DNA of 7,745 nt from a virus (IMGVR_UViG_2671180921_000004:1-7745); one strand, 5' to 3'. Shown: positions 17-7,745, counted from the first letter of the stretch. Notes: generated from the sequence alone by a model not told the origin. Made by a program: numbers and translations.

Positions 17-157
17 TTATCCATTTTGGGGAACTCCTGGCTGATTAAGTACGTCGATGAGTCGTTTCCATCCGTCACGTAATTTACGTGTGATTCGCTC
101 AAGTAAAGATTCGGAAGGGCAGCCAGCAACAGGCCACCCTGCAATGGCATATTGCAT
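17..157 (-). CDS. cIII: cIII-like regulatory protein (FtsH/HflB inhibitor that stabilises cII), 46 aa
   Basis: Not in the ORF track (under 60 aa). Minus-strand translation from the ATG at 157 gives MQYAIAGWPVAGCPSESLLERITRKLRDGWKRLIDVLNQPGVPQNG*, matching lambda cIII as I recall it almost residue for residue over the N-terminal 43 aa. A TAAGGAG Shine-Dalgarno lies about 6 nt upstream. Stop TAA is at 17-19 (plus-strand tta). Confidence 0.8.
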   Translation of the reverse strand: MQYAIAGWPVAGCPSESLLERITRKLRDGWKRLIDVLNQPGVPQNG

Positions 158-262
158 GGTGTGCTCCTTATTTACGCTTTAAATTGCTCCGTGTATTCAC
201 TCGTTGGAATGAATACACAGTGCAGTGTTTATTCTGTTGTTTATGCCAAAAATAAAGGCAGA

Positions 263-886
263 CTATGCGGCCTCGGAAGGAAGTCCAATCATCTTATTCA
301 AATCTTCTACCCGTAAAGCAGGAAGTGCTGTACTTGCTTTATCTGCTTCTTTTGGTAGCAATTCTTTGCTTTCAGGCCAAACTTCAATAAGTCGCTTAAC
401 TGTTGTGACTGAGTTCAAAGCAGCCCATACATTTGATTCGATATCCTTTTTCTTGTCTTCAAGTTTTTGTTGCAATGCGCAGATTTCATCAAACCTTTTT
501 GTTATTTCGTGTTCTGCGTCAAACATGCATTTATCTTTGGTCGGAGTAGGGAGCAATATATCTTCGCCGTTGCCGTCTTTCCCATATGAATGCCATCCAA
601 CCCTTCTGCCAGATACAGTCAGATAAATCGAAGTAGAACGAACATCGCATGAGTAAAATGAACATCCCATCTTTTCAAGTTCTTCACTTATAGCTACTAA
701 CCTGGATGATAACTGATCCACTTCATCAGTTTTCTTTTTACCGCCAAACGCAATAACTCTGGCGTCAAGTGCAAGCTGGTTCTTTAACTTTGTTACTTCT
801 TCAAGTTCAGTGAAAACCCCAGACTTAATTAAAGCGTTACGAGCGATTTCCTCTTTCATTCTCGTAGTTAAGCGGATTGATGACAT
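263..886 (-). CDS. hypothetical early-left (PL operon) accessory protein, 208 aa
   Basis: Long minus-strand ORF (track 263..946). The start was chosen at the internal ATG at 886 (MSSIRLTTRMKEE...), which is preceded by GAGAGGA; the longer track ORF would run to within 2 nt of the N stop. Same orientation as cIII and N. No family recognised from the sequence alone. Confidence 0.6.
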   Translation of the reverse strand: MSSIRLTTRMKEEIARNALIKSGVFTELEEVTKLKNQLALDARVIAFGGKKKTDEVDQLSSRLVAISEELEKMGCSFYSCDVRSTSIYLTVSGRRVGWHSYGKDGNGEDILLPTPTKDKCMFDAEHEITKRFDEICALQQKLEDKKKDIESNVWAALNSVTTVKRLIEVWPESKELLPKEADKASTALPALRVEDLNKMIGLPSEAA

Positions 887-947
887 ATTAATTCCTCTCA
901 AATAAGTGGTTTGCTGCCTAATTTCATTTTCTGGCGACCAACACAAG

Positions 948-1220
948 TCATCTTGCTGTCAGTTGTTTGGATTTCCGGTAGCCTGCCGCGTAAAGAGCTA
1001 CGTTCGGAAGACAAGTTGAGCCTTCATATTTTCTGGTCAACGTTGTCAGTGTTATTACTTCTGCTCTCATTGCTGGTTTGCGCTTGCATTGCAAGACCAC
1101 TCGAGAGGGGGTTGGTCTGTGTAGCTTGTCGGAGCTAATCGCCTCCTGACTTTGCAGGTTTGCGCGACGAGCTCTACGACGAGAAGCTGAGGTGCCTTTA
1201 AATTCTGTTTTTCTGGACAT
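948..1220 (-). CDS. N: N-like transcription antitermination protein, 90 aa
   Basis: Start taken at the ATG at 1220 (MSRKTEFKGTSASRRRARRANLQSQ...), preceded by GGGAGGA. The N-terminal arginine-rich motif SRRRARRA resembles the lambda N ARM (QTRRRERRAEKQ). The C-terminus LPNVALYAAGYRKSKQLTAR resembles the P22 gene 24 (N-like) C-terminus as recalled. It lies immediately downstream of the nutL and PL elements. Confidence 0.75.
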   Translation of the reverse strand: MSRKTEFKGTSASRRRARRANLQSQEAISSDKLHRPTPSRVVLQCKRKPAMRAEVITLTTLTRKYEGSTCLPNVALYAAGYRKSKQLTAR

Positions 1221-1318
1221 AGATTCCTCCCGAATAAACTTTGGTGATGCAATCTCGAAGCTCCTCCTGAGACGGTTGCTTCGGCATTGCATCCCACAGC
1301 TCATGTGGTTGGGTGATC

Positions 1319-1365
1319 TGGCTTTTCAGCCACGTAGTCGAGAGTTCGACGTTGTTTAAAGAGCC
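1319..1365 (-). promoter_or_regulatory. nutL: nutL site: boxA-like GCTCTTTAAACAAC (1351-1364) and boxB hairpin UGGCU-GAAA-AGCCA (1319-1332) on the leftward transcript
   Basis: Read on the minus strand, GGCTCTTTAAACAACG is followed 18 nt later by TGGCTGAAAAGCCA (5-bp stem, GAAA loop). Both elements have near-identical counterparts at nutR (4084-4129). Position between PL and N matches lambdoid layout. Confidence 0.6.
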
Positions 1366-1410: not shown

Positions 1411-1439
1411 ATAGTACGATATGTACTTTATTGGGTCAA
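1411..1439 (-). promoter_or_regulatory. PL promoter with embedded operator (OL1-like): -35 TTGACC (1434-1439), 17-bp spacer, -10 TACTAT (1411-1416)
   Basis: Minus-strand read is TTGACC-caataaagtacatatcg-TACTAT. The spacer and -10 region carries AAAGTACATATCGTACT, which is 15/17 identical to a motif in the PR spacer (3813-3829). Confidence 0.55.
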
Positions 1440-1625
1440 TACGATTTGTTCTAAAATAGGGTGGTTTTTTATAACACTTTGTATTTAATAGTGTTGTTTT
1501 TTAGCGTGGGTGTATCGCCTCGGCGATGTAAGGAGAGATCAGAATTGCGTGGTTTAGTGAGTTGTATCTATTTATTTTTCAATAAATACATTTGGTTATG
1601 TGTTTTTAGGTGGCGAACGTGAGGC

Positions 1626-1660: not shown

Positions 1661-2065
1661 TCACTTATTACTGTTCGTTTCCATGGGATTGGCCAAGAAA
1701 TCAAAATAAGGCAGAGTGAACCTACCAAGATTTGACATGAGGATAATTTGCTCGGCATATGTTTTTATATAGGGATATGCCATATTGGGAGCAATGGACC
1801 TTACCTCATATGATTTTGCCATTTCATGAGAAAAATCATCTTCTGACCGGAAGTCAAAGTCGTATGTGATGTCCATCTCAAGCCTGCCTTCAATAGTTAC
1901 GGAGGCAAAATATCTCACTCTAAATAGCTTTGAATCCTTCACATTAGTGTAAAGTTCATTATTTAGATTAACGGTTGTTTTTATGGCTTTTTTTGCTGTT
2001 GAATCGCCTTCTAGCCGTGTCATAACCAAGCGTTCAACTTTTTTGCTAATGAGTTCAATTTTCAT
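1661..2065 (-). CDS. SecB-like chaperone, third gene of a toxin-antitoxin-chaperone (TAC) cassette, 134 aa
   Basis: ORF track 1661..2065. Its start ATG overlaps the upstream gene's stop by 4 bp (ATGA), indicating translational coupling. The C-terminal region ...SIAPNMAYPYIKTYAEQIILMSNLGRFTLPYFDF... resembles the E. coli SecB segment ...[38 protein letters not shown]... as recalled. Size is similar to SecB. Product call is from memory-based similarity only. Confidence 0.6.
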   Translation of the reverse strand: MKIELISKKVERLVMTRLEGDSTAKKAIKTTVNLNNELYTNVKDSKLFRVRYFASVTIEGRLEMDITYDFDFRSEDDFSHEMAKSYEVRSIAPNMAYPYIKTYAEQIILMSNLGRFTLPYFDFLANPMETNSNK

Positions 2066-2718
2066 GGTAATAATAAGTAATTTCCGTCAGAAGTCATTTC
2101 GTCATTCAGGTTGCTAGCCGCTGTGAAACTTGATGACAAGTTACTTATCAAAGAAAAAACATTCCGTTTTTCTTTGCATTTGCCGTTACCCCTTACTGCG
2201 CTGAACAACATTTTTGAAAAGTAAGATTCTGTAGCCTTTTCAGCGAAATAAGCAGAAGGTGATGTGACGGCTGACTCACACCGAGCAATGACGCTAGTCA
2301 TGGCTGTTTCTTCTTCCTCTGCGTCAACTAGGCTCCATTCAATTGCGCTCATATCTTGAATTAAGATATCTGCAGGAATTCCAAGTCCGTCATGTAGTCT
2401 ACGGATCATTGAAAGACTTAATGGACGCTTACGATTTAAGACCTCAGATACTTTAGATGCTGAGCCAATGTATTGTTTCATATCGGCATAAGAGAGGCCT
2501 TGTTGATCCATACGGAACTTGATTGCTTCTATGGGATCTGGCTTGTCCATAGGGAACTCGCGTGACTCATAGTGCTCGATAAGCAAGCCTAGTAGTTCAA
2601 ACTCATCAAAATCTTCAGTTCCAGGTTGTAAATCACTAGACGCAAGTTCAATGAGCCTTTCCATAGCTGCAGCATGCTCTTCACTATTTTTAATGATGCG
2701 CCAGCTAGTTCGATTCAT
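2062..2718 (-). CDS. higA: HigA-family HTH (XRE-type) antitoxin with a ~96-aa C-terminal extension, 218 aa
   Basis: ORF track 2062..2718. Residues about 66-121 (IKFRMDQQGLSYADMKQYIGSASKVSEVLNRKRPLSLSMIRRLHDGLGIPADILI) align with the HTH end of E. coli HigA (...IRTLMDQYGLTLSDLPEIGSKSMVSRVLSGKRKLTLEHAKKLATRFGISPALF) as recalled. GGAGG lies 5 nt upstream of the ATG. 4-bp ATGA overlaps with the HigB stop upstream and the SecB-like start downstream. Confidence 0.8.
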   Translation of the reverse strand: MNRTSWRIIKNSEEHAAAMERLIELASSDLQPGTEDFDEFELLGLLIEHYESREFPMDKPDPIEAIKFRMDQQGLSYADMKQYIGSASKVSEVLNRKRPLSLSMIRRLHDGLGIPADILIQDMSAIEWSLVDAEEEETAMTSVIARCESAVTSPSAYFAEKATESYFSKMLFSAVRGNGKCKEKRNVFSLISNLSSSFTAASNLNDEMTSDGNYLLLP

Positions 2719-3002
2719 TTAAGCCTCCACTTGTCGTACTCTGCATGAGTTCCAACTCTTTCAACTATGACCATTCCTGCCTGGTAAACAACTTGGACAA
2801 CGAGCCGATAGTTATTGCCTTTTATATTAAAAATTACCCTGTTGTTAGGAAGGAAGTCGGCAGAATTAAATCTATTCCGTATGTCTTGAGTCGTTTTCCA
2901 GTTTTCTCTTATCACTTCATCATACCAAGAGTCTAAAGCCCCCTTGGCCTGATTGTGCTTCCGGCTAAAACTGTGAAGCTTCTCTACGTTTAAGACCTTC
3001 AT
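2715..3002 (-). CDS. higB: HigB-family toxin (RelE/ParE superfamily mRNA interferase), 95 aa
   Basis: ORF track 2715..3002. The segment NRVIFNIKGNNYRLVVQVVYQAGMVIVERVGTHAEYDKW aligns with E. coli HigB HYVFNVGGNELRVVAMVFFESQKCYIREVMTHKEYD as recalled. Toxin-first gene order is typical of higBA. Confidence 0.85.
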   Translation of the reverse strand: MKVLNVEKLHSFSRKHNQAKGALDSWYDEVIRENWKTTQDIRNRFNSADFLPNNRVIFNIKGNNYRLVVQVVYQAGMVIVERVGTHAEYDKWRLK

Positions 3003-3024
3003 AATCCGATTTTGTTCCCTCTTT

Positions 3025-3057
3025 GGGAATTATAGATTCATTTCCCATAAAGGGAAT
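3025..3057 (-). promoter_or_regulatory. putative promoter and operator of the higB-higA-secB-like operon: -10 TATAAT (minus strand, plus 3029-3034) flanked by GGGAAT / TTCCC-ataaa-GGGAA inverted repeats
   Basis: A perfect TATAAT hexamer on the minus strand lies 26 nt upstream of the higB ATG. GGGAAT occurs at 3025-3030 and 3052-3057, with TTCCC at 3042-3046 forming the dyad TTCCC-ATAAA-GGGAA. No good -35 is visible. Antitoxin autoregulation sites are typically palindromes over the promoter, which is the basis for the operator call. Confidence 0.35.
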
Positions 3058-3087
3058 CTGTATTTTTATCCAGAAATGCTATGTACA

Positions 3088-3747
3088 TCACCCAAACGTC
3101 TCTTCAGGCCACTGGCTAGCGATAACTTTCCCCACAACGGAACAACTCTCATTGCATGGGATCATTGGGTACTGTGGGTTTAGTGGTTGTAAAAACACCT
3201 GACCGCTATCCCTGATCAGTTTCTTGAAGGTAAATTCATCACCACCAAGTCTGGCTATGCAGAAATCGCCGGGCTCAACAGCTTGCTCTGGGTCAACCAG
3301 AATTAACATCCCGTCAGGAAAACTAGGTTTGGAACCTGTTGGGGCGGTCATTGAGTTACCTTCAACCTCAAGCCAGAATGCAGAGTCACTGGCTTTTTTG
3401 GTTGTGCTTACCAATCTCTCCGCATCGCCTTTGGTAAAGGTTCTGAGTTCTGGAGAGAACATCCCAGCCTGAACATGAGAAAAAACAGGGTACTCATATT
3501 GTTTTTTAACTGGGGCCGATGAGTATTCGCCAACAGGTGAAAATGTCCCGTCGTGGTTGAATGATATGTTATCAATACCAAGGTATTTAAACACCACACC
3601 AATATCACTAAGAGATGGATGACGAGATCCGCGCAACCAGTGTCCAATCCCACCCTGCGTCATACCTAGCTCTTCGGCTAACTTCTCTTGAGTTATGCCG
3701 AGCTCTTTCATTCTGGATCTAGCCAGTTCATACCATTTCATTTTCAT
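3088..3747 (-). CDS. cI: cI-type prophage repressor: heterologous N-terminal HTH domain fused to a lambda-cI-like C-terminal LexA/S24 autocleavage and dimerisation domain, 220 aa
   Basis: The C-terminal ~135 aa ([28 protein letters not shown]...[18 protein letters not shown]) are near-identical to lambda cI as recalled, including the Ala-Gly cleavage region and the catalytic Ser/Lys context. The N-terminal ~85 aa ([45 protein letters not shown]...) are not lambda-like. Start taken at the ATG at 3747 (alternative ATG at 3741); the track ORF extension to 3909 would cross the operator region into cro and is rejected. Confidence 0.9.
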
Positions 3748-3857
3748 GTCCTTATTATTACGCTCTGTATTGCAACCATCCATGCACAATGTGTATTTTT
3801 GCTTGCATTCAAAAAGTACATATTGTATTTTTTCTTCATGGTTACTATGGAGGGCAT
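3748..3857. promoter_or_regulatory. OR region with divergent PRM/PR; PR -35 TTGCAT (3803-3808) and -10 TATTTT (3826-3831); operator-like repeats with TGTATT cores at about 3760-3775, 3784-3799 and 3813-3829
   Basis: 110-bp gap between divergent cI and cro. The motif AAAGTACATATTGTATT (3813-3829) sits in the PR spacer and -10 and matches the PL spacer motif at 15/17 positions. Two further related repeats (CACAATGTGTATTTTT, CTCTGTATTGCAA) recur at about 26-32 bp spacing. Confidence 0.55.
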
Positions 3858-4073
3858 ATGAGCAACCTACGAAAATATCGAGAGTCACTGAATATCTCTC
3901 AAACAACACTTGCTAAGGCAGTTGGATGCACACAGGGAGCTATCGGACATTGGGAATCTGGTCGTCGCTTCCCAGACCTTAAAACATGCCGTGCTCTTGT
4001 TGCGTGTCTAAACAAGTTAGGCGCAAAAGTAAGTCTTGATGACGTGTTCCCGCCGGAGCACAAATCCGCTTAA
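3858..4073 (+). CDS. cro: Cro-like HTH (XRE-family) regulator, 71 aa
   Basis: Start at ATG 3858 with GGAGGG 4 nt upstream. The HTH region [24 protein letters not shown] parallels the cI N-terminal HTH ([24 protein letters not shown]), as expected for two proteins sharing operators. Divergent from cI. The longer track ORF from 3789 lacks an RBS and overlaps the operators. Confidence 0.8.
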
Positions 4074-4083
4074 TAAGCGGAGC

Positions 4084-4129
4084 CGCTCTTTGTAACAACG
4101 GACATTCGTCCTACGTCGCTGAAAAGCGA
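4084..4129 (+). promoter_or_regulatory. nutR: nutR site: boxA CGCTCTTTGTAACAAC (4084-4099) and boxB hairpin UCGCU-GAAA-AGCGA (4116-4129)
   Basis: Immediately downstream of cro. Near-identical in architecture and sequence to the nutL elements on the opposite strand (boxA GCTCTTT..AACAAC; boxB N-GCU-GAAA-AGC-N). Confidence 0.6.
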
Positions 4130-4214
4130 GCCCCAAGATATCTGACCAACTAAGGCCATATGCGTTTCCACGCATACCTTTCAACTAACTATTCACTATT
4201 GGAAATCTTAAGAA

Positions 4215-4511
4215 ATGGAACAAACAAGTTACAGCAAACTATCACAGCGTGACGTTGATCGCGCAGAAACAGATTTACTCATCAACCTGTCAACGCTTAC
4301 CCAGCGTGGTCTGGCAAAGATGATTGGCTGTCATGAATCGAAGATAAGCAGAACGGACTGGCGGTTTATTGCTTCGGTCTTGTGTGCTTTCGGAATGGCA
4401 TCAGACATCAGTCCAATTAGCAGGGCTTTTAAGTATGCGCTTGATGGAATCACAAAGAAAAAACGCCCGGCGGCAACCGAGCGTTCTGAACAAATCCAGA
4501 TGGAGTTCTGA
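4215..4511 (+). CDS. cII: cII-like transcriptional activator, 98 aa, with a lambda-identical C-terminal tail and a divergent N-terminal region
   Basis: The C-terminal 18-19 aa (KKKRPAATERSEQIQMEF) match the lambda cII C-terminus as recalled. The N-terminal ~80 aa differ from lambda. Position between cro/nutR and O is canonical. Confidence 0.8.
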   Translation: MEQTSYSKLSQRDVDRAETDLLINLSTLTQRGLAKMIGCHESKISRTDWRFIASVLCAFGMASDISPISRAFKYALDGITKKKRPAATERSEQIQMEF

Positions 4512-4533
4512 GGTCATTACTGGATCTATCAAC
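4457..4533 (-). ncRNA. oop: oop antisense RNA (about 77 nt), antisense to the 3' end of cII, with its rho-independent terminator
   Basis: The minus-strand sequence GTTGATAGATCCAGTAATGACCTCAGAACTCCATCTGGATTTGTTCAGAACGCTCGGTTGCCGCCGGGCGTTTTTT matches the lambda oop RNA as recalled. GC-rich hairpin (plus 4464-4483) followed by a U-tract. Confidence 0.6.
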
Positions 4534-4543
4534 AGGAGTCATT

Positions 4544-5443
4544 ATGACAAATACAGCAAAAATACTCAACTTCGGCAGAGGTAACTTTGCCGGACAGGAG
4601 CGTAATGTGGCAGATCTCGATGATGGTTACGCCAGACTATCAAATATGCTGCTTGAGGCTTATTCAGGCGCAGATCTGACCAAGCGACAGTTTAAAGTGC
4701 TGCTTGCCATTCTGCGTAAAACCTATGGGTGGAATAAACCAATGGACAGAATCACCGATTCTCAACTTAGCGAGATTACAAAGTTACCCGTCAAACGGTG
4801 CAATGAAGCCAAGTTAGAACTCGTCAGAATGAATATTATCAAGCAGCAAGGCGGCATGTTTGGACCAAATAAAAACATCTCAGAATGGTGTATCCCTCAA
4901 AACGAGGGAAAATCCCCTAAAACGAGGGATAAAACATCCCTCAAATTGGGGGATTGCTATCCCTCAAAACAGGGGGACACAAAAGACACTATTACAAAAG
5001 AAAAAAGAAAAGATTATTCGTCCGAGAATTCTGGCGAATCCTCTGACCAGCCAGAAAACGATCTTTCTGTGGTTAAACCGGATGCTGCAATTCAGAGCGG
5101 CAGCAAGTGGGGAACAGCAGAAGACCTGACCGCCGCAGAGTGGATGTTTGACATGGTGAAGACCATCGCGCCATCAGCCAGAAAACCGAATTTTGCTGGG
5201 TGGGCTAACGATATCCGCCTGATGCGTGAACGTGACGGACGTAACCACCGCGATATGTGTGTGCTTTTCCGCTGGGCCTGCCAGGACAACTTCTGGTCCG
5301 GTAACGTGCTGAGTCCGGCCAAACTCCGCGACAAGTGGACCCAGCTCGAAATCAACCGTAACAAGCAACAGGCAGGCGTGACAGCCAGCAAACCAAAACT
5401 CGACCTGACAAACACTGACTGGATTTACGGGGTGGATTTATGA
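4544..5443 (+). CDS. O: replication initiation protein O (origin-binding), 299 aa
   Basis: Translation matches lambda O as recalled (MTNTAKILNFGRGNFAGQERNVADLDDGYARLSNMLLEAY...). AGGAG RBS upstream. Contains the ori iterons internally. Stop overlaps the P start (ATGA). Confidence 0.95.
   Translation: MTNTAKILNFGRGNFAGQERNVADLDDGYARLSNMLLEAYSGADLTKRQFKVLLAILRKTYGWNKPMDRITDSQLSEITKLPVKRCNEAKLELVRMNIIKQQGGMFGPNKNISEWCIPQNEGKSPKTRDKTSLKLGDCYPSKQGDTKDTITKEKRKDYSSENSGESSDQPENDLSVVKPDAAIQSGSKWGTAEDLTAAEWMFDMVKTIAPSARKPNFAGWANDIRLMRERDGRNHRDMCVLFRWACQDNFWSGNVLSPAKLRDKWTQLEINRNKQQAGVTASKPKLDLTNTDWIYGVDL
4892..5016. other. origin of replication (ori-lambda type): four ~19-bp iterons with internal dyad TCCCTC-N5-GAGGGA, followed by an AT-rich DNA-unwinding region
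   Basis: Iterons visible at about 4892-4910, 4911-4930, 4931-4955 and 4956-4980 (ATCCCTCAAAACGAGGGAA, ATCCCCTAAAACGAGGGAT, ATCCCTCAAATTGGGGGAT, ATCCCTCAAAACAGGGGGA), then AAAAGACACTATTACAAAAGAAAAAAGAAAAGATTA. Located inside the O coding sequence as in lambda. Confidence 0.85.
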
Positions 5444-6141
5444 AAAACATCGCCGCACAGATGGTTAACTTTGACCGTGAGCAGATGCGTCGGATCGCCA
5501 ACAACATGCCGGAACAGTACGACGAAAAGCTGCAGGTACAGCAGGTTGCGCAGATCATCAACGGTGTGTTCAGCCAGTTACTGGCAACTTTCCCGGCGAG
5601 TCTGGCTAACCGTGACCAGAACGAACTGAACGAAATCCGCCGCCAGTGGGTTCTGGCTTTCCGGGAAAACGGGATCACCACAATGGAACAGGTTAACGCA
5701 GGAATGCGCGTAGCCCGTCGGCAGAATCGACCATTTCTGCCATCACCCGGGCAGTTTGTTGCATGGTGCCGGGAAGAAGCATCCGTTATCGCCGGACTGC
5801 CAAACGTCAGCGAGCTGGTTGATATGGTTTACGAGTATTGCCGGAAGCGAGGCCTGTATCCGGATGCAGAGTCTTATCCGTGGAAATCGAACGCGCACTA
5901 CTGGCTGGTTACCAACCTGTATCAGAACATGCGGGCCAATGCGCTTACTGATGCGGAATTACGCCGTAAGGCCGCAGATGAGCTTGTCCATATGACTGCG
6001 AGAATTAACCGTGGTGAGGCGATCCCTGAACCAGTAAAACAACTTCCTGTCATGGGCGGTAGACCTCTAAATCGTGCACAGGCTCTGGCGAAGATCGCAG
6101 AACTCAAAGCTAAGTTCGGACTGAAAGGAGCAAGTGTATGA
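5440..6141 (+). CDS. P: replication protein P (DnaB helicase loader), 233 aa
   Basis: Translation matches lambda P as recalled (MKNIAAQMVNFDREQMRRIANNMPEQYDEK...). ATGA overlap with the O stop. Confidence 0.95.
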   Translation: MKNIAAQMVNFDREQMRRIANNMPEQYDEKLQVQQVAQIINGVFSQLLATFPASLANRDQNELNEIRRQWVLAFRENGITTMEQVNAGMRVARRQNRPFLPSPGQFVAWCREEASVIAGLPNVSELVDMVYEYCRKRGLYPDAESYPWKSNAHYWLVTNLYQNMRANALTDAELRRKAADELVHMTARINRGEAIPEPVKQLPVMGGRPLNRAQALAKIAELKAKFGLKGASV

Positions 6142-6428
6142 CGGGCAAAGAGGCAATTATTCATTACCTGGGGACGCATAATAGCTTCTGTGCGCCGGAC
6201 GTTGCCGCGCTAACAGGCGCAACAGTAACCAGCATAAATCAGGCCGCGGCTAAAATGGCACGGGCAGGTCTTCTGGTTATCGAAGGTAAGGTCTGGCGAA
6301 CGGTGTATTACCGGTTTGCTACCAAGGAAGAACGGGAAGGAAAGATGAGCACGAACCTAATTTTTAAGGAGTGTCGCCAGAGTGCCGCGATGAAACGGGT
6401 ATTGGCGGTATATGGAGTTAAAAGGTGA
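6138..6428 (+). CDS. ren: Ren protein (confers resistance to Rex exclusion in lambda), 96 aa
   Basis: Translation MTGKEAIIHYLGTHNSFCAPDVAALTGATVTSINQAAAKMARAG... matches lambda Ren as recalled. ATGA overlap with the P stop. Confidence 0.8.
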   Translation: MTGKEAIIHYLGTHNSFCAPDVAALTGATVTSINQAAAKMARAGLLVIEGKVWRTVYYRFATKEEREGKMSTNLIFKECRQSAAMKRVLAVYGVKR

Positions 6429-6453
6429 CCATCTACATCACTGAGCTAATAAC

Positions 6454-6486
6454 AGGCCTGCTGGTAATCGCAGGCCTTTTTATTTG
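6454..6486 (+). terminator. rho-independent terminator (tR2-like) downstream of ren
   Basis: Hairpin AGGCCTGC-tggtaatc-GCAGGCCT (8-bp perfect stem) followed by TTTTTATTT on the plus strand. Confidence 0.65.
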
Positions 6487-6500
6487 GGGGAGAGTAAATC

Positions 6501-6707
6501 GTGGTTGAGTTGATTTTTTCTGCATTGAGGATTCTCGGTGCTATGTGGATGGTGTCGACGTTCATTGCGGTTGTCGGAAGTTTTGTCCGGTTGGTAGGCG
6601 AAGGTAAAGACCTGGTGGGTGTGCTGTTCGGTAGCATTCTCCTGTGGGTGATTATCGGTGTTGCGCCTGTCGCTGTAGCAAAAATGGCGTGGCGTTTTGT
6701 TAGTTGA
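6501..6707 (+). CDS. small hydrophobic protein with two predicted transmembrane segments, 68 aa (GTG start)
   Basis: ORF track 6501..6707. Two hydrophobic stretches (ILGAMWMVSTFIAVVGSFV and LVGVLFGSILLWVIIGVAPVAVA). GGGGAGAG lies about 6 nt upstream of the GTG. Coding status is uncertain: short, non-ATG start. Confidence 0.4.
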   Translation: MVELIFSALRILGAMWMVSTFIAVVGSFVRLVGEGKDLVGVLFGSILLWVIIGVAPVAVAKMAWRFVS

Positions 6708-6714
6708 GGGGAAT

Positions 6715-6993
6715 ATGAGCGAGATCTACCGACAATTCGAAGAGTGGTGGTCAAAACACAAAAGCCCGTTCACGGAAGACGATGAGCTAAAAGAGTTTGC
6801 CTGGGAGATATGGCAGGCATCGCGAGCAACTATTGAACTGGATATCGACTGGCCCGAATCGAATGACGACTTTTGGAAAGATGGTGAAGAAGGTGCTTAT
6901 GCGATGGGTTATGAGGATGGGCGTGACAAAACGGTAATTGCAGTAATGAAAGCCATCAGGGCCGCAGGAATCAAAGAAAAGAATTTCGATTAA
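6715..6993 (+). CDS. hypothetical small acidic, Trp-rich protein, 92 aa
   Basis: Start taken at ATG 6715 (MSEIYRQFEEWW...), preceded by GAGGGG. About a quarter of residues are Asp/Glu. No recognised family. Confidence 0.55.
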   Translation: MSEIYRQFEEWWSKHKSPFTEDDELKEFAWEIWQASRATIELDIDWPESNDDFWKDGEEGAYAMGYEDGRDKTVIAVMKAIRAAGIKEKNFD

Positions 6994-7125
6994 GCAAATA
7001 TCACTTCAATAAATCGCTTTTAAGGCATCACAATCGCTCTGTAGTGAGGTAAGTGCGTGCAAGGAATGCCGATAAGCAGCGAGAATGAAAAATGCGTCAG
7101 AATGCGTTTGAGGAGGTTTTAAGAA

Positions 7126-7341
7126 ATGAGTACGGTAGCTGAACTTGTCAGGGCTAATTTTCGTGAAGAGTTGGTGCGTTGGTATCGGTATCGTTCATCG
7201 TCCAGTTTGCCGCTTGATGAGTTGTATGAGCATTCACCTGCCGCACGACGCTATCCGCGTGACCGTGTTCTTCGACGGTTGTTCAAACTCAACAATGAGT
7301 TTCAGCGCAACAGAATTATCCGGAGTCTGGATTTAAAGTGA
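7126..7341 (+). CDS. hypothetical small basic protein, 71 aa
   Basis: ORF track 7126..7341. Strong AGGAGG RBS about 9 nt upstream of the ATG. Arg-rich. No recognised family. Confidence 0.45.
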   Translation: MSTVAELVRANFREELVRWYRYRSSSSLPLDELYEHSPAARRYPRDRVLRRLFKLNNEFQRNRIIRSLDLK

Positions 7342-7351
7342 AGGAGTGAGC

Positions 7352-7534
7352 ATGAGCGAGCAAATATTCAGAGAGATTAAGCCACGGTTTTATCGCAAGG
7401 TAAGGGTGGTTTATCAGGACGAAAACAAGACCTGTGCATACGCCATTCATAATGGTCGGTGGTCAGTGTTCGACACCAAAAACTTCGAGAAGAACTTCGA
7501 GAGGATTAAGGGTGATGAGGAAACTAACATTTGA
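7352..7534 (+). CDS. hypothetical small protein, 60 aa
   Basis: Start taken at ATG 7352 (MSEQIFREIK...) with AAGGAG 5 nt upstream; the track ORF begins at the GTG at 7346. Its 3' end overlaps the ninB-like start by 20 nt. Confidence 0.45.
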   Translation: MSEQIFREIKPRFYRKVRVVYQDENKTCAYAIHNGRWSVFDTKNFEKNFERIKGDEETNI

Positions 7535-7745
7535 ACTAAGAAGCCCCATCCATCAGCAGAACGCCATTCCAGCTAGCCAGCAAATCCTGCCAGCCCCAAC
7601 CTAACCAACCGTAGTAACCATTCAGGACCGCAACCGTAGCTTAGACCACAACCGAAAGCTCCGAGATTGCCCTGGTGACGTCTCGCGTCAGGTTGAATGG
7701 CCGGATAGTTGTCTGGATGCCGAAAGCTGGACGTGTGTGTTTACC
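7515..7745 (+). pseudogene. ninB: ninB/Orf-family recombination protein homologue, interrupted by an in-frame TAA at 7602-7604 and truncated by the window end
   Basis: Frame from ATG 7515 reads MRKLTFELRSPIHQQNAIPASQQILPAPT*PTVVTIQDRNRSLDHNRKLRDCPGDVSRQVEWPDSCLDAESWTCVFT, versus lambda NinB MKKLTFEIRSPAHQQNAIHAVQQILPDPTKPIVVTIQERNRSLDQNRKLWACLGDVSRQVEWHGRWLDAESWKCVFT as recalled. The stop replaces the Lys codon at position 30. Not in the ORF track because of the stop. Confidence 0.5.

What the first reader, a model, noticed from the sequence alone, without database searches (positions are those of the whole stretch)
3088..4511. Mosaic immunity module: lambda-type cI C-terminal domain and cII tail joined to heterologous DNA-binding regions
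The cI C-terminal domain, the last ~18 aa of cII, oop, O, P, ren and cIII look lambda-like, while the cI N-terminal domain, Cro, the cII N-terminal part, the operators, N and the nut boxB sequences differ. The recombination joints therefore appear to lie inside cI (near residue 85) and inside cII, a textbook example of lambdoid modular exchange with intragenic junctions.
Basis: partly seen in the sequence, partly recalled or inferred. Interest (0 to 1): 0.4.

Follow-up and report, generated by a model that had tools for sequence, protein, structure and literature searches.

The report
Known lambdoid immunity-region mosaic (Nil2 type)
This is the repressor/Cro/cII control region of an E. coli lambda-like prophage in which the repressor's back half, the cII tail and the replication genes match phage lambda, while the DNA-recognition parts match Shiga-toxin phage Nil2 and phage 21; the shuffling is real but long known and very common.

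Summary
Against phage lambda the window has sharp identity blocks. The cI 3' part (3087-3498) is 93.9% identical in DNA and 135/136 in protein. The block 4450-6494 (cII tail, oop, O, P, ren) is 98.3% identical. Nothing aligns between them (3499-4449).

The cI joint lies between codons 81 and 82, in the inter-domain linker, 10 codons before the Ala-Gly cleavage site. The cII joint coincides with the 3' end of the antisense oop RNA.

The arrangement is not new:
- cI is 217/217 identical to the published Nil2 repressor, and Cro is 70/71.
- The exact cI protein is indexed in 1617 blocks of public assemblies.
- One E. coli prophage is 99.56% identical over 3086-6508.
- Phage 21 matches 4183-6494 at 98.1%, so the cII joint exists only relative to lambda. 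It is the classical imm21 right border, already annotated in the phage 21 record.

Among 119 cI homologues, 47 show a significant change in identity level, 45 of them at residues 73-83. The linker is therefore a recurrent boundary.

Six 17-bp operators (nAnTAC-N5-GTAnTn), PR, PL, nutL, nutR, a PRE-like site, Po and oop are all in place.

Verdict: textbook lambdoid mosaicism, already known, low interest.

The parts
3088..3741 (-). cI repressor, 217 aa from the ATG at 3741. In-frame upstream ATGs at 3747 and 3783 give the 219- and 231-aa database calls.
   Evidence: Pfam HTH_3 (residues 9-56) plus Peptidase_S24 (residues 85-207). 217/217 identical to Nil2 CI. PDB 3bdn lambda repressor, E 2.8e-96.
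3087..3498 (-). Lambda-like part of cI: linker from YEYPVF, the Ala-Gly cleavage site and the whole S24 autocleavage/oligomerisation domain.
   Evidence: 93.9% nt identity to lambda 37226-37637, ungapped. 135/136 aa identical; dS 0.34, dN 0.003.
3499..3741 (-). Heterologous cI N-terminal HTH domain (residues 1-81), which sets the immunity specificity.
   Evidence: About 20% aa identity to the lambda N-terminal domain. 100% identical to the Nil2, Morioka Stx1 phage, 1717, 2851 and 2B8 repressors; next-nearest relatives about 51% (epsilon34/SPN9CC).
3756..3830 (.). OR: three 17-bp operators at 3756-3772, 3782-3798 and 3814-3830. PR is TTGCAT (3803-3808), N17, TATTTT (3826-3831).
   Evidence: Sites annotated in AP005153 map here: two identical, one with 1 mismatch. 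Consensus nAnTAC-N5-GTAnTn: 9 matches versus 2.15 expected, 0 of 200 shuffles reach 9, and 5 of the 9 lie in OR/OL. Sequences checked.
3858..4073 (+). cro, 71 aa, an HTH_3-type Cro (not matched to the lambda Cro family).
   Evidence: Pfam HTH_3, 4.2e-12. 70/71 identical to Nil2 and Morioka Cro; 27% to lambda Cro. 36% identical to the window's own cI N-terminal domain, sharing TQGxIGHW.
4084..4129 (+). nutR: boxA CGCTCTTTG (4084-4092), spacer hairpin (4100-4111), boxB TCGCTGAAAAGCGA (4116-4129).
   Evidence: Sequence and fold. The segment from 4083 onward is H-19B/BP-4795 type, 95%.
4159..4176 (+). tR1-like hairpin TATGCGT-TTCC-ACGCATA followed by CCTTTCAA.
   Evidence: Fold z-score -4.1. Same position as tR1 in the phage 21 record.
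4215..4511 (+). cII, 98 aa, phage 21 / H-19B / HK97 allele. A TTGC-N6-TTGT site lies at 4224-4237 on the minus strand (PRE -35 position).
   Evidence: Pfam Phage_CII, 2e-34. 89/98 identical to phage 21 cII, 86/98 to H-19B. Site sequence.
4450..4511 (+). Lambda-identical cII tail: the last 17 aa plus the stop codon.
   Evidence: Identity to lambda starts at AAAAAACGCCC. PDB 1xwr alignment.
4454..4534 (-). oop antisense RNA. The terminator stem is 4460-4487 and its T-run is at 4454-4459, which is where the junction lies.
   Evidence: Maps onto oopRNA of AJ237660. Terminator found. Two-hairpin fold, z-score -3.7.
4541..4569 (-). Po promoter: TTGAGT, N17, CATAAT.
   Evidence: Promoter scan. Identical to lambda.
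4544..6428 (+). O (4544-5443), P (5440-6141) and ren (6138-6428), the lambda/21-type replication module.
   Evidence: 98.3% nt identity to lambda and 98.1% to phage 21. O 299/299, P 229/233, ren 94/96 aa.
1411..1486 (-). OL/PL: operators at 1412-1428, 1437-1453 and 1470-1486. PL is TTGACC (1439-1434), N17, TACTAT (1416-1411).
   Evidence: Same consensus as OR. Segment 897-1652 is Morioka/2B8 type, 94-96%.
948..1364 (-). N (948-1220, 90 aa) and nutL (boxA 1364-1356, spacer hairpin 1350-1337, boxB 1332-1319). These travel with the same immunity type.
   Evidence: Pfam N_peptide, 7.6e-32. 89/90 identical to Morioka N, 29% to lambda N. Sequences.

Best explanation
The region is an ordinary lambda-type lysis/lysogeny switch of an E. 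coli lambdoid prophage, assembled from interchangeable segments by recombination among related phages.

The specificity cassette is Nil2 / Morioka-Stx1-phage type. It comprises the cI HTH domain, OR with PRM and PR, and cro, together with the separately located OL/PL, nutL and N. The repressor's HTH domain and Cro share a TQGxIGHW recognition region. They are predicted to bind six 17-bp operators of consensus nAnTAC-N5-GTAnTn.

This cassette is joined in the cI linker to a lambda-family C-terminal domain. That domain supplies the Ala-Gly cleavage site, the Ser/Lys autoprotease, dimerisation and cooperativity. The prophage should therefore be SOS-inducible in the way lambda is, but heteroimmune to lambda.

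To the right follow an H-19B-type nutR/tR1 and a phage 21-type cII. The last 17 codons of that cII overlap the conserved oop antisense RNA and are shared by lambda, 21, H-19B, HK97 and even P22-like phages. After them comes a lambda/21-type O-P-ren replication module.

The two intragenic joints are the edges of conserved tracts (the cI C-terminal domain and the oop island). Inference: these tracts act as homology handles for Red/RecA-mediated exchange, and selection keeps only recombinants whose joints fall at a domain or functional boundary.

Shown here: the sequence blocks, the breakpoints, the domain content, the presence of the sites, and the recurrence in other genomes. Inferred: operator binding, induction behaviour, and the recombination mechanism.
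For: - Sharp blocks versus lambda, with background-level identity in between.
- cI residues 82-217 are 135/136 identical to lambda and match PDB lambda repressor structures.
- cI is 217/217 identical to Nil2 CI, Cro 70/71, N 89/90 to Morioka N. The N-terminal domain is 100% identical in at least 56 phage records.
- Phage 21 is 98.1% identical over 4183-6494, and its record carries 'border lambda immunity' and oopRNA features.
- The junction lies at the oop terminator T-run.
- Recurrent match ends at 4450, 4507 and 4551 across 344 phage records.
- Operator motif is enriched and confined mainly to OR/OL. Lambda operators are absent.
- The cI N-terminal domain and Cro share their HTH.
- 45 of 47 cI homologues with a significant change point change at residues 73-83, spanning at least 4 N-terminal domain classes.
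- The exact cI is indexed in 1617 blocks of the collection, and a 99.56%-identical prophage exists.
- Literature: the same domain pattern is described for the epsilon34 repressor and cII tail (PMC2629481). The imm21 hybrid differs from lambda left of oop, and the last 17 aa of cII are needed for OOP regulation (PMC3349717). Red promotes recombination of diverged flanks (PMC2327257).
Against: - No 'shoulder' of intermediate identity is visible at either joint. The original joint formation could therefore have been illegitimate rather than homologous.
- dS of 0.34 in the cI C-terminal part shows that the exchange with lambda's lineage is not recent.
- Relatives with uniformly about 80% N-terminal and about 83% C-terminal identity exist (P0002-P0007). 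The pairing of these two domains is therefore old, and the direction of transfer cannot be determined.
- Operator binding, immunity and induction were not tested.
Confidence: 0.93

Rival explanations
1. No recombination occurred. The whole region shares one history with lambda, and the DNA-binding parts simply evolved much faster under diversifying selection while the cI C-terminal domain and cII tail were constrained.
For: The N-terminal domain is still a homologous HTH: ELG-x-QE...GM-Q-G-G aligns with lambda. cII aligns over its full length. Protein-level change points alone could also reflect different evolutionary rates in the two domains.
Against: Synonymous sites are conserved in the cI C-terminal part: 24 of 25 differences are synonymous, with dS 0.34. 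The adjacent coding and non-coding DNA (OR, the cro-cII spacer) is unalignable. That would need dN far above dS over more than 900 bp, including intergenic DNA. The same cassette sits next to unrelated flanks in other phages. Blocks differ in divergence from lambda (1.7% versus 6.1%).
Confidence: 0.03
2. The chimeric cI and cII arose newly in this particular genome, as a recent, unique recombination with a lambda-like prophage.
For: In 3116-3234 the window is identical to lambda, whereas Morioka, Nil2 and 2B8 differ at 4-6 sites. This suggests a small recent conversion patch. No record covers 80% or more of the whole window.
Against: cI is 217/217 identical to Nil2 CI. The exact protein is indexed in 1617 blocks. 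A prophage is 99.56% identical over 3086-6508. Phage 21 already has the cII joint. Only the outer combination (rex-slot cargo, nin region) is unusual.
Confidence: 0.03
3. Assembly chimera or laboratory hybrid (of the lambda imm21 kind) rather than a natural arrangement.
For: The cII border equals that of lambda imm21 hybrids such as DE3.
Against: The same arrangement is present in many independent complete E. coli chromosomes and isolated phages. The window lacks the 21 cI and cro that define imm21: cI is only 75/217 identical to 21 cI and Cro only 13/71 identical to 21 Cro.
Confidence: 0.01

Closest known systems
Immunity region of Stx phage Nil2 (AJ413274), the Morioka V526 Stx1-converting phage / Stx2 II (AP005153/4), VT2-Sakai, 1717, 2851, YYZ-2008 and coliphage 2B8. 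This is CI 'Clade I', reported as 61% identical to lambda CI, in PMC8951638.
   Same: cI 217/217, Cro 70/71, N 89/90. Three of six operators are identical and the others differ by 1-2 bases. Segment 3090-4551 is 96-98% identical in DNA. 2B8 and E. coli prophage L016 also share the lambda-type O-P-ren.
   Different: Nil2 and Morioka carry a DnaB-type replication module after 4551. The genes between OL and cI differ.
Phage lambda immunity and replication region (NC_001416)
   Same: Gene order; cI C-terminal domain 135/136 aa; cII last 17 aa; oop and Po identical; O 299/299; P and ren 98%; cIII 96%.
   Different: The cI N-terminal domain, OR/OL operators, Cro (HTH_3 type rather than lambda Cro), N, nut sites and the cII N-terminal 80 residues are not alignable in DNA. 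rexAB is replaced by other cargo.
Phage 21 and lambda imm21 hybrids (AJ237660; DE3)
   Same: cII, oop, O, P and ren are 98.1% identical over 4183-6494. The lambda/21 border inside cII next to oop is the same joint (PMC3349717).
   Different: 21 cI (75/217 identical) and 21 Cro (13/71) are a different immunity type. nutR/tR1 at 4083-4182 is H-19B type, not 21 type.
Salmonella phage epsilon34 repressor and CII (PMC2629481)
   Same: The same pattern is described there. [quoted passage not shown] Its operator consensus WTACRAWWTGTAT resembles the sites here. Its CII tail has 16 of 18 residues identical to lambda.
   Different: A different, diverged allele in a P22-like Salmonella phage, about 51% identical in the N-terminal domain.

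Membership tests
Lambda-type (lambdoid) immunity switch | Divergently transcribed cI and cro separated by a tripartite operator that overlaps PR and PRM. | tested here: met
   cI 3088-3741 (-) and cro 3858-4073 (+). Three 17-bp sites lie in the 116-bp spacer and PR overlaps the site at 3814-3830.
Lambda-type (lambdoid) immunity switch | Repressor made of an N-terminal HTH domain plus a LexA-like S24 autocleavage domain with an Ala-Gly site and a Ser/Lys dyad. | tested here: met
   Pfam HTH_3 and Peptidase_S24. Residues 82-217 are 135/136 identical to lambda cI, including VQAGMF, and the only difference is W to L. Actual cleavage was not assayed.
Lambda-type (lambdoid) immunity switch | A second tripartite operator (OL) with the same consensus at PL, upstream of N and nutL. 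| tested here: met
   Sites at 1412-1428, 1437-1453 and 1470-1486. PL is TTGACC-N17-TACTAT. nutL and N lie downstream.
Lambda-type (lambdoid) immunity switch | cII activator with a TTGC-N6-TTGC site at PRE, antisense oop RNA over the cII 3' end, and cIII. | tested here: met
   Phage_CII 2e-34. TTGC-N6-TTGT at 4224-4237. oop, Po and terminator. cIII with a Lambda_thermo hit of 88.5 bits.
Lambda-type (lambdoid) immunity switch | Repressor actually binds the operators and confers immunity. | not testable with these tools
   Needs EMSA or footprinting and superinfection tests.
Nil2 / Morioka Stx1-phage immunity type (same specificity) | Near-identical cI DNA-binding domain and Cro. | tested here: met
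   cI 217/217 to Nil2, Cro 70/71. N-terminal domain 100% identical in tblastn.
Nil2 / Morioka Stx1-phage immunity type (same specificity) | The same operator sequences in OR and OL. | tested here: met
   Three of six annotated AP005153 operators are identical. OR at 3756 and OL2 have 1 mismatch each, and OL3 has 2.
Lambda immunity (imm-lambda) | Lambda operators (TATCACCGC... type) and the lambda cI N-terminal domain and Cro. | tested here: not met
   No lambda-type operator in OR or OL. N-terminal domain about 20% and Cro 27% identical.
imm21 | Phage 21 cI and cro. | tested here: not met
   cI 75/217 and Cro 13/71 identical to the phage 21 proteins. Only cII onward is 21-like.

The most novel reading that the evidence does not exclude
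This repressor's oligomerisation and cooperativity domain is 135/136 identical to lambda cI. It could therefore form mixed dimers or higher oligomers with lambda-type repressors (or with other N-terminal domain classes carrying the same C-terminal domain) in polylysogenic E. coli. That would couple the stability or induction thresholds of otherwise heteroimmune prophages. The lambda-identical patch at 3116-3234 would then be a trace of ongoing conversion between co-resident prophages.
Probability: 0.12. Interest if true: 0.4.

Novelty: already known. Interest (0 to 1): 0.1.

Why it matters
The region is a clean worked example of how lambdoid phages swap immunity specificity while keeping the induction and replication machinery. 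It also identifies the immunity group of this prophage (Nil2/Morioka type, heteroimmune to lambda, 21 and H-19B), which is useful for annotation. It opens no new question, because the proteins, the joints and the principle are all already documented.

Tried and rejected
- My first operator guess (ATACA-N4-TGTAT) was no better than chance: 4 matches versus 3.25 expected. The inverted-repeat finder saw nothing in OR or OL. The sites were found instead by mapping the AP005153 annotation and by OR/OL word sharing.
- A single-breakpoint max-chi-square test on mismatch density inside the cI lambda-like block was not significant (p = 0.068). The extra joint rests instead on the ordering of informative sites.
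- The search for a donor carrying a near-identical cI N-terminal domain with a different C-terminal domain found none. About 63 phage records have at least 90% N-terminal identity, and a similar number (62) match at least 80% of 3088-4215. The closest protein with a differently diverged C-terminal domain has only 78% N-terminal identity (P0030).
- Rfam has no oop or nut family. Only the cIII thermometer matched.
- Literature searches did not recover a paper that dissects this particular cI domain by domain. PMC8951638 reports only 61% overall identity to lambda CI.
- Structure prediction was not run, because the informative half is 99% identical to solved lambda repressor structures.

Full report
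WHAT THE WINDOW IS. The ORF list, Pfam and PHROG scans show the early region of a lambdoid phage. In order:
- cIII (17-157, minus strand)
- an Nmad5-family ORF (263-946, -)
- N (948-1220, -), nutL and PL/OL
- three cargo ORFs in the position of lambda rexAB (1661-3002, -)
- cI (3088-3741, -), OR and cro (3858-4073)
- nutR/tR1, cII (4215-4511) and oop
- O, P, ren and part of the nin region

Megablast finds hundreds of related Stx-converting and other E. coli and Salmonella lambdoid phages. No single record covers 80% or more of the window, in either the phage collection or the complete E. coli genomes.

CHECK OF THE OBSERVATION. Only six blocks align against lambda:
- 1-174 (94.3%)
- 183-259 (98.7%)
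- 1533-1652 (92.5%)
- 3087-3498 (93.9%, ungapped, 25 mismatches)
- 4450-6494 (98.3%)
- 7512-7745 (80%)

A forced global alignment of 2990-4620 drops from 79-90 identities per 90 columns inside the blocks to 42-51 per 90 between 3499 and 4449, with no zone of intermediate identity.

At the protein level, cI residues 82-217 are 135/136 identical to lambda, while residues 1-81 are about 20% identical. The last 17 residues of cII are identical. O is 299/299, P 229/233, ren 94/96 and cIII 44/46. Cro, N and cII overall are 27%, 29% and 38% identical.

THE TWO JOINTS. In cI, identity starts at TATGAGTACCC (Y-E-Y-P). The joint lies between codons Q81 and Y82 of the 217-aa protein. This is in the inter-domain linker, 10 codons upstream of the Ala-Gly cleavage site.

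In cII, identity starts at AAAAAACGCCC (about 4450-4457). This is the T-run of the terminator of the antisense oop RNA (4534 to 4454). The oop coordinates come from mapping the phage 21 annotation, from the terminator and Po hits, and from the two-hairpin fold.

WHERE THE 'HETEROLOGOUS' PARTS COME FROM. Segment 3090-4551 is 96-98% identical to the Morioka V526 Stx1-converting phage, Nil2, 1717, 2851, YYZ-2008 and coliphage 2B8. cI is 217/217 identical to Nil2 CI, Cro is 70/71 and N is 89/90. Segment 897-1652 (N, nutL, PL/OL) belongs to the same type, as expected because OL must match the repressor.

From 4083 rightward the window also matches H-19B and BP-4795 (95%). From 4183 it matches phage 21 at 98.1% all the way to 6494. 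Relative to phage 21 there is therefore no joint in cII at all. The lambda/21 discontinuity inside cII is the classical right border of the imm21 substitution. It is annotated as 'border lambda immunity' next to 'oopRNA' in AJ237660 and described for lambda imm21 hybrids in PMC3349717.

A distant search with 4150-4900 shows match ends recurring at 4183-4200, 4450, 4507 and 4551 in 344 records. P22-like Salmonella phages share only the 4450-4517 island.

REGULATORY SITES. Mapping the operators annotated in AP005153 gives six 17-bp sites, three in OR and three in OL. Their consensus is nAnTAC-N5-GTAnTn. The core pattern occurs 9 times in the window against 2.15 expected (0 of 200 shuffles reach 9), and five of the nine lie in OR/OL. 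Lambda-type operators are absent there.

PR (TTGCAT-N17-TATTTT) and PL (TTGACC-N17-TACTAT) overlap the promoter-proximal operators. The cI N-terminal domain and Cro are 36% identical and share TQGxIGHW, consistent with one operator set.

Both nut sites have boxA, a spacer hairpin and a boxB with a GAAA loop. This differs from lambda's boxB. A TTGC-N6-TTGT site sits 9-22 nt inside cII, in the lambda PRE position.

HOW GENERAL THE cI JOINT IS. I examined the 120 best cI homologues from the 5.8-billion-protein search. Among them the lambda-family C-terminal domain (80-99% identical) is attached to at least four N-terminal domain classes:
- lambda-like
- this type
- a roughly 50%-identical epsilon34/SPN9CC type
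- 207- and 212-215-residue types

A two-rate change-point test was significant for 47 of 119 full-length proteins. In 45 of those 47 the change lies at residues 73-83. Proteins with uniformly about 80% N-terminal and about 83% C-terminal identity also exist (P0002-P0007), so the pairing of this N-terminal domain with a lambda-family C-terminal domain is old.

The epsilon34 genome paper states the same two patterns explicitly, namely a conserved repressor protease domain with a divergent N-terminal domain, and a conserved cII tail. It names VT2-Sa and Nil2 as the nearest N-terminal relatives and gives a similar operator consensus (PMC2629481). PMC8951638 places this CI in its Clade I at 61% overall identity to lambda CI. 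That figure is simply the average of an almost identical C-terminal domain and an unrelated N-terminal domain.

HOW COMMON THE EXACT ARRANGEMENT IS. The exact cI (231-aa call) is indexed in 1617 blocks of public assemblies. E. coli prophage L016 is 99.56% identical over 3086-6508 and 99.2% over 897-1651. It differs only in the genes between 1652 and 3086. All eight loci examined break at exactly those two positions and carry different cargo: HicA-type toxin-antitoxin genes, Bro-N, unknown ORFs or IS elements.

AGE AND NUMBER OF EVENTS. In the cI C-terminal block, 24 of 25 differences from lambda are synonymous (dS 0.34, dN 0.003). O-P-ren differs by only 1.7%.

Inside the cI block the informative sites are ordered. 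At five consecutive sites from 3118 to 3192 the window agrees with lambda against the Morioka type. At 20 consecutive sites from 3235 to 3466 it agrees with the Morioka type against lambda. With 6 lambda-type and 22 Morioka-type sites, the chance that the last 20 are all Morioka-type is about 7e-5 by my own calculation. This indicates a further joint between 3192 and 3235. Several exchanges of different ages are therefore recorded.

MECHANISM (INFERENCE). The switch should work as in lambda. Repressor dimers would bind OR and OL through the Nil2-type HTH and cooperate through the lambda-type C-terminal domain. RecA-stimulated self-cleavage at Ala-Gly would induce the prophage. Cro would bind the same sites. 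cII (21 type) would activate PRE and be limited by oop antisense RNA and, by analogy with lambda, by proteolysis through its conserved tail.

The conserved tracts flanking the specificity cassette are plausible substrates for homologous or homeologous recombination by Red or RecA (PMC2327257). Only joints at domain or functional boundaries would survive selection. Because neither joint has a shoulder of intermediate identity, the original formation of the joints may have been illegitimate.

RIVALS. Uniform ancestry with unequal constraint is contradicted by conserved synonymous sites next to unalignable coding and non-coding DNA, and by unequal block ages. A new chimera unique to this genome is contradicted by the identity to Nil2 CI and by phage 21. 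An artefact or laboratory hybrid is contradicted by the many independent genomes with the same arrangement, and by the absence of 21 cI and cro.

VERDICT. The feature is an already-known, very widespread allele combination and a textbook illustration of lambdoid mosaicism. Interest is low.

Noticed in passing
window 1661-3002 (minus strand), between OL and cI: The rexAB position holds three co-oriented ORFs. They are a HigB-family toxin (2715-3002), a 218-aa HTH protein (2062-2718) and a 134-aa protein (1661-2065). Their PADLOC hits are PD-Lambda-2_A (2.5e-42), PD-Lambda-2_B (3.8e-50, but only positions 3-125 of a 402-position profile) and PD-T4-9_C (3.2e-11). This is probably a prophage-borne toxin-antitoxin-like anti-phage defence cargo. 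The same cargo (98-99% identical) is in H-19B, BP-4795 and JNE Stx1 phages.
   Followed up: partly
window 1652 and 3086/3087: The cargo slot has razor-sharp, recurrent borders. In 8 of 8 E. coli prophages carrying the identical cI, homology to the window stops at 1651/1652 and resumes at 3086/3087, which is the cI stop codon. Different cargo lies in between: HicA-type toxin-antitoxin genes, Bro-N, unknown ORFs or IS elements. The left flank 1533-1652 is a conserved island also present in lambda (35708-35825).
   Followed up: partly
window 3192-3235, inside the cI C-terminal domain: There is an extra recombination joint. At informative sites from 3118 to 3192 the window matches lambda against Morioka, Nil2 and 2B8. 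At 20 sites from 3235 to 3466 it matches the Morioka type against lambda. Segment 3116-3234 is 100% identical to lambda.
   Followed up: partly
window 263-946 (minus strand): A 227-aa Nmad5-family ('nucleotide modification associated domain 5') ORF lies between the cIII/ea10 region and N (Pfam 9.1e-71). It is shared with JNE Stx1 phages and some E. coli prophages but is absent from lambda, H-19B, 2B8 and Morioka at this position.
   Followed up: no
window 4084-4129 (nutR) and 1364-1319 (nutL): Both nut sites carry an extra GC-rich hairpin between boxA and boxB, and a boxB with a 4-5 bp stem and a GAAA loop. The predicted lowest-energy folds pair the boxA region with the boxB region around the central hairpin. 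From memory, this resembles what has been described for H-19B nut sites; I did not check it in a paper.
   Followed up: no
window 112-170 (minus strand): Rfam Lambda_thermo (the cIII thermoregulator) matches at 88.5 bits against a gathering score of 50, so the cIII 5' RNA switch is conserved.
   Followed up: no
window 6495-7745: The nin region is itself patchy: 6716-7359 is BP-4795/JNE type (96%), 6495-6715 matches only some prophages, and ninB (7512-7745) is only 80% identical to lambda. No public record in the collections searched covers 80% or more of the 7745-bp window, so the overall combination of modules may be unrecorded there.
   Followed up: no
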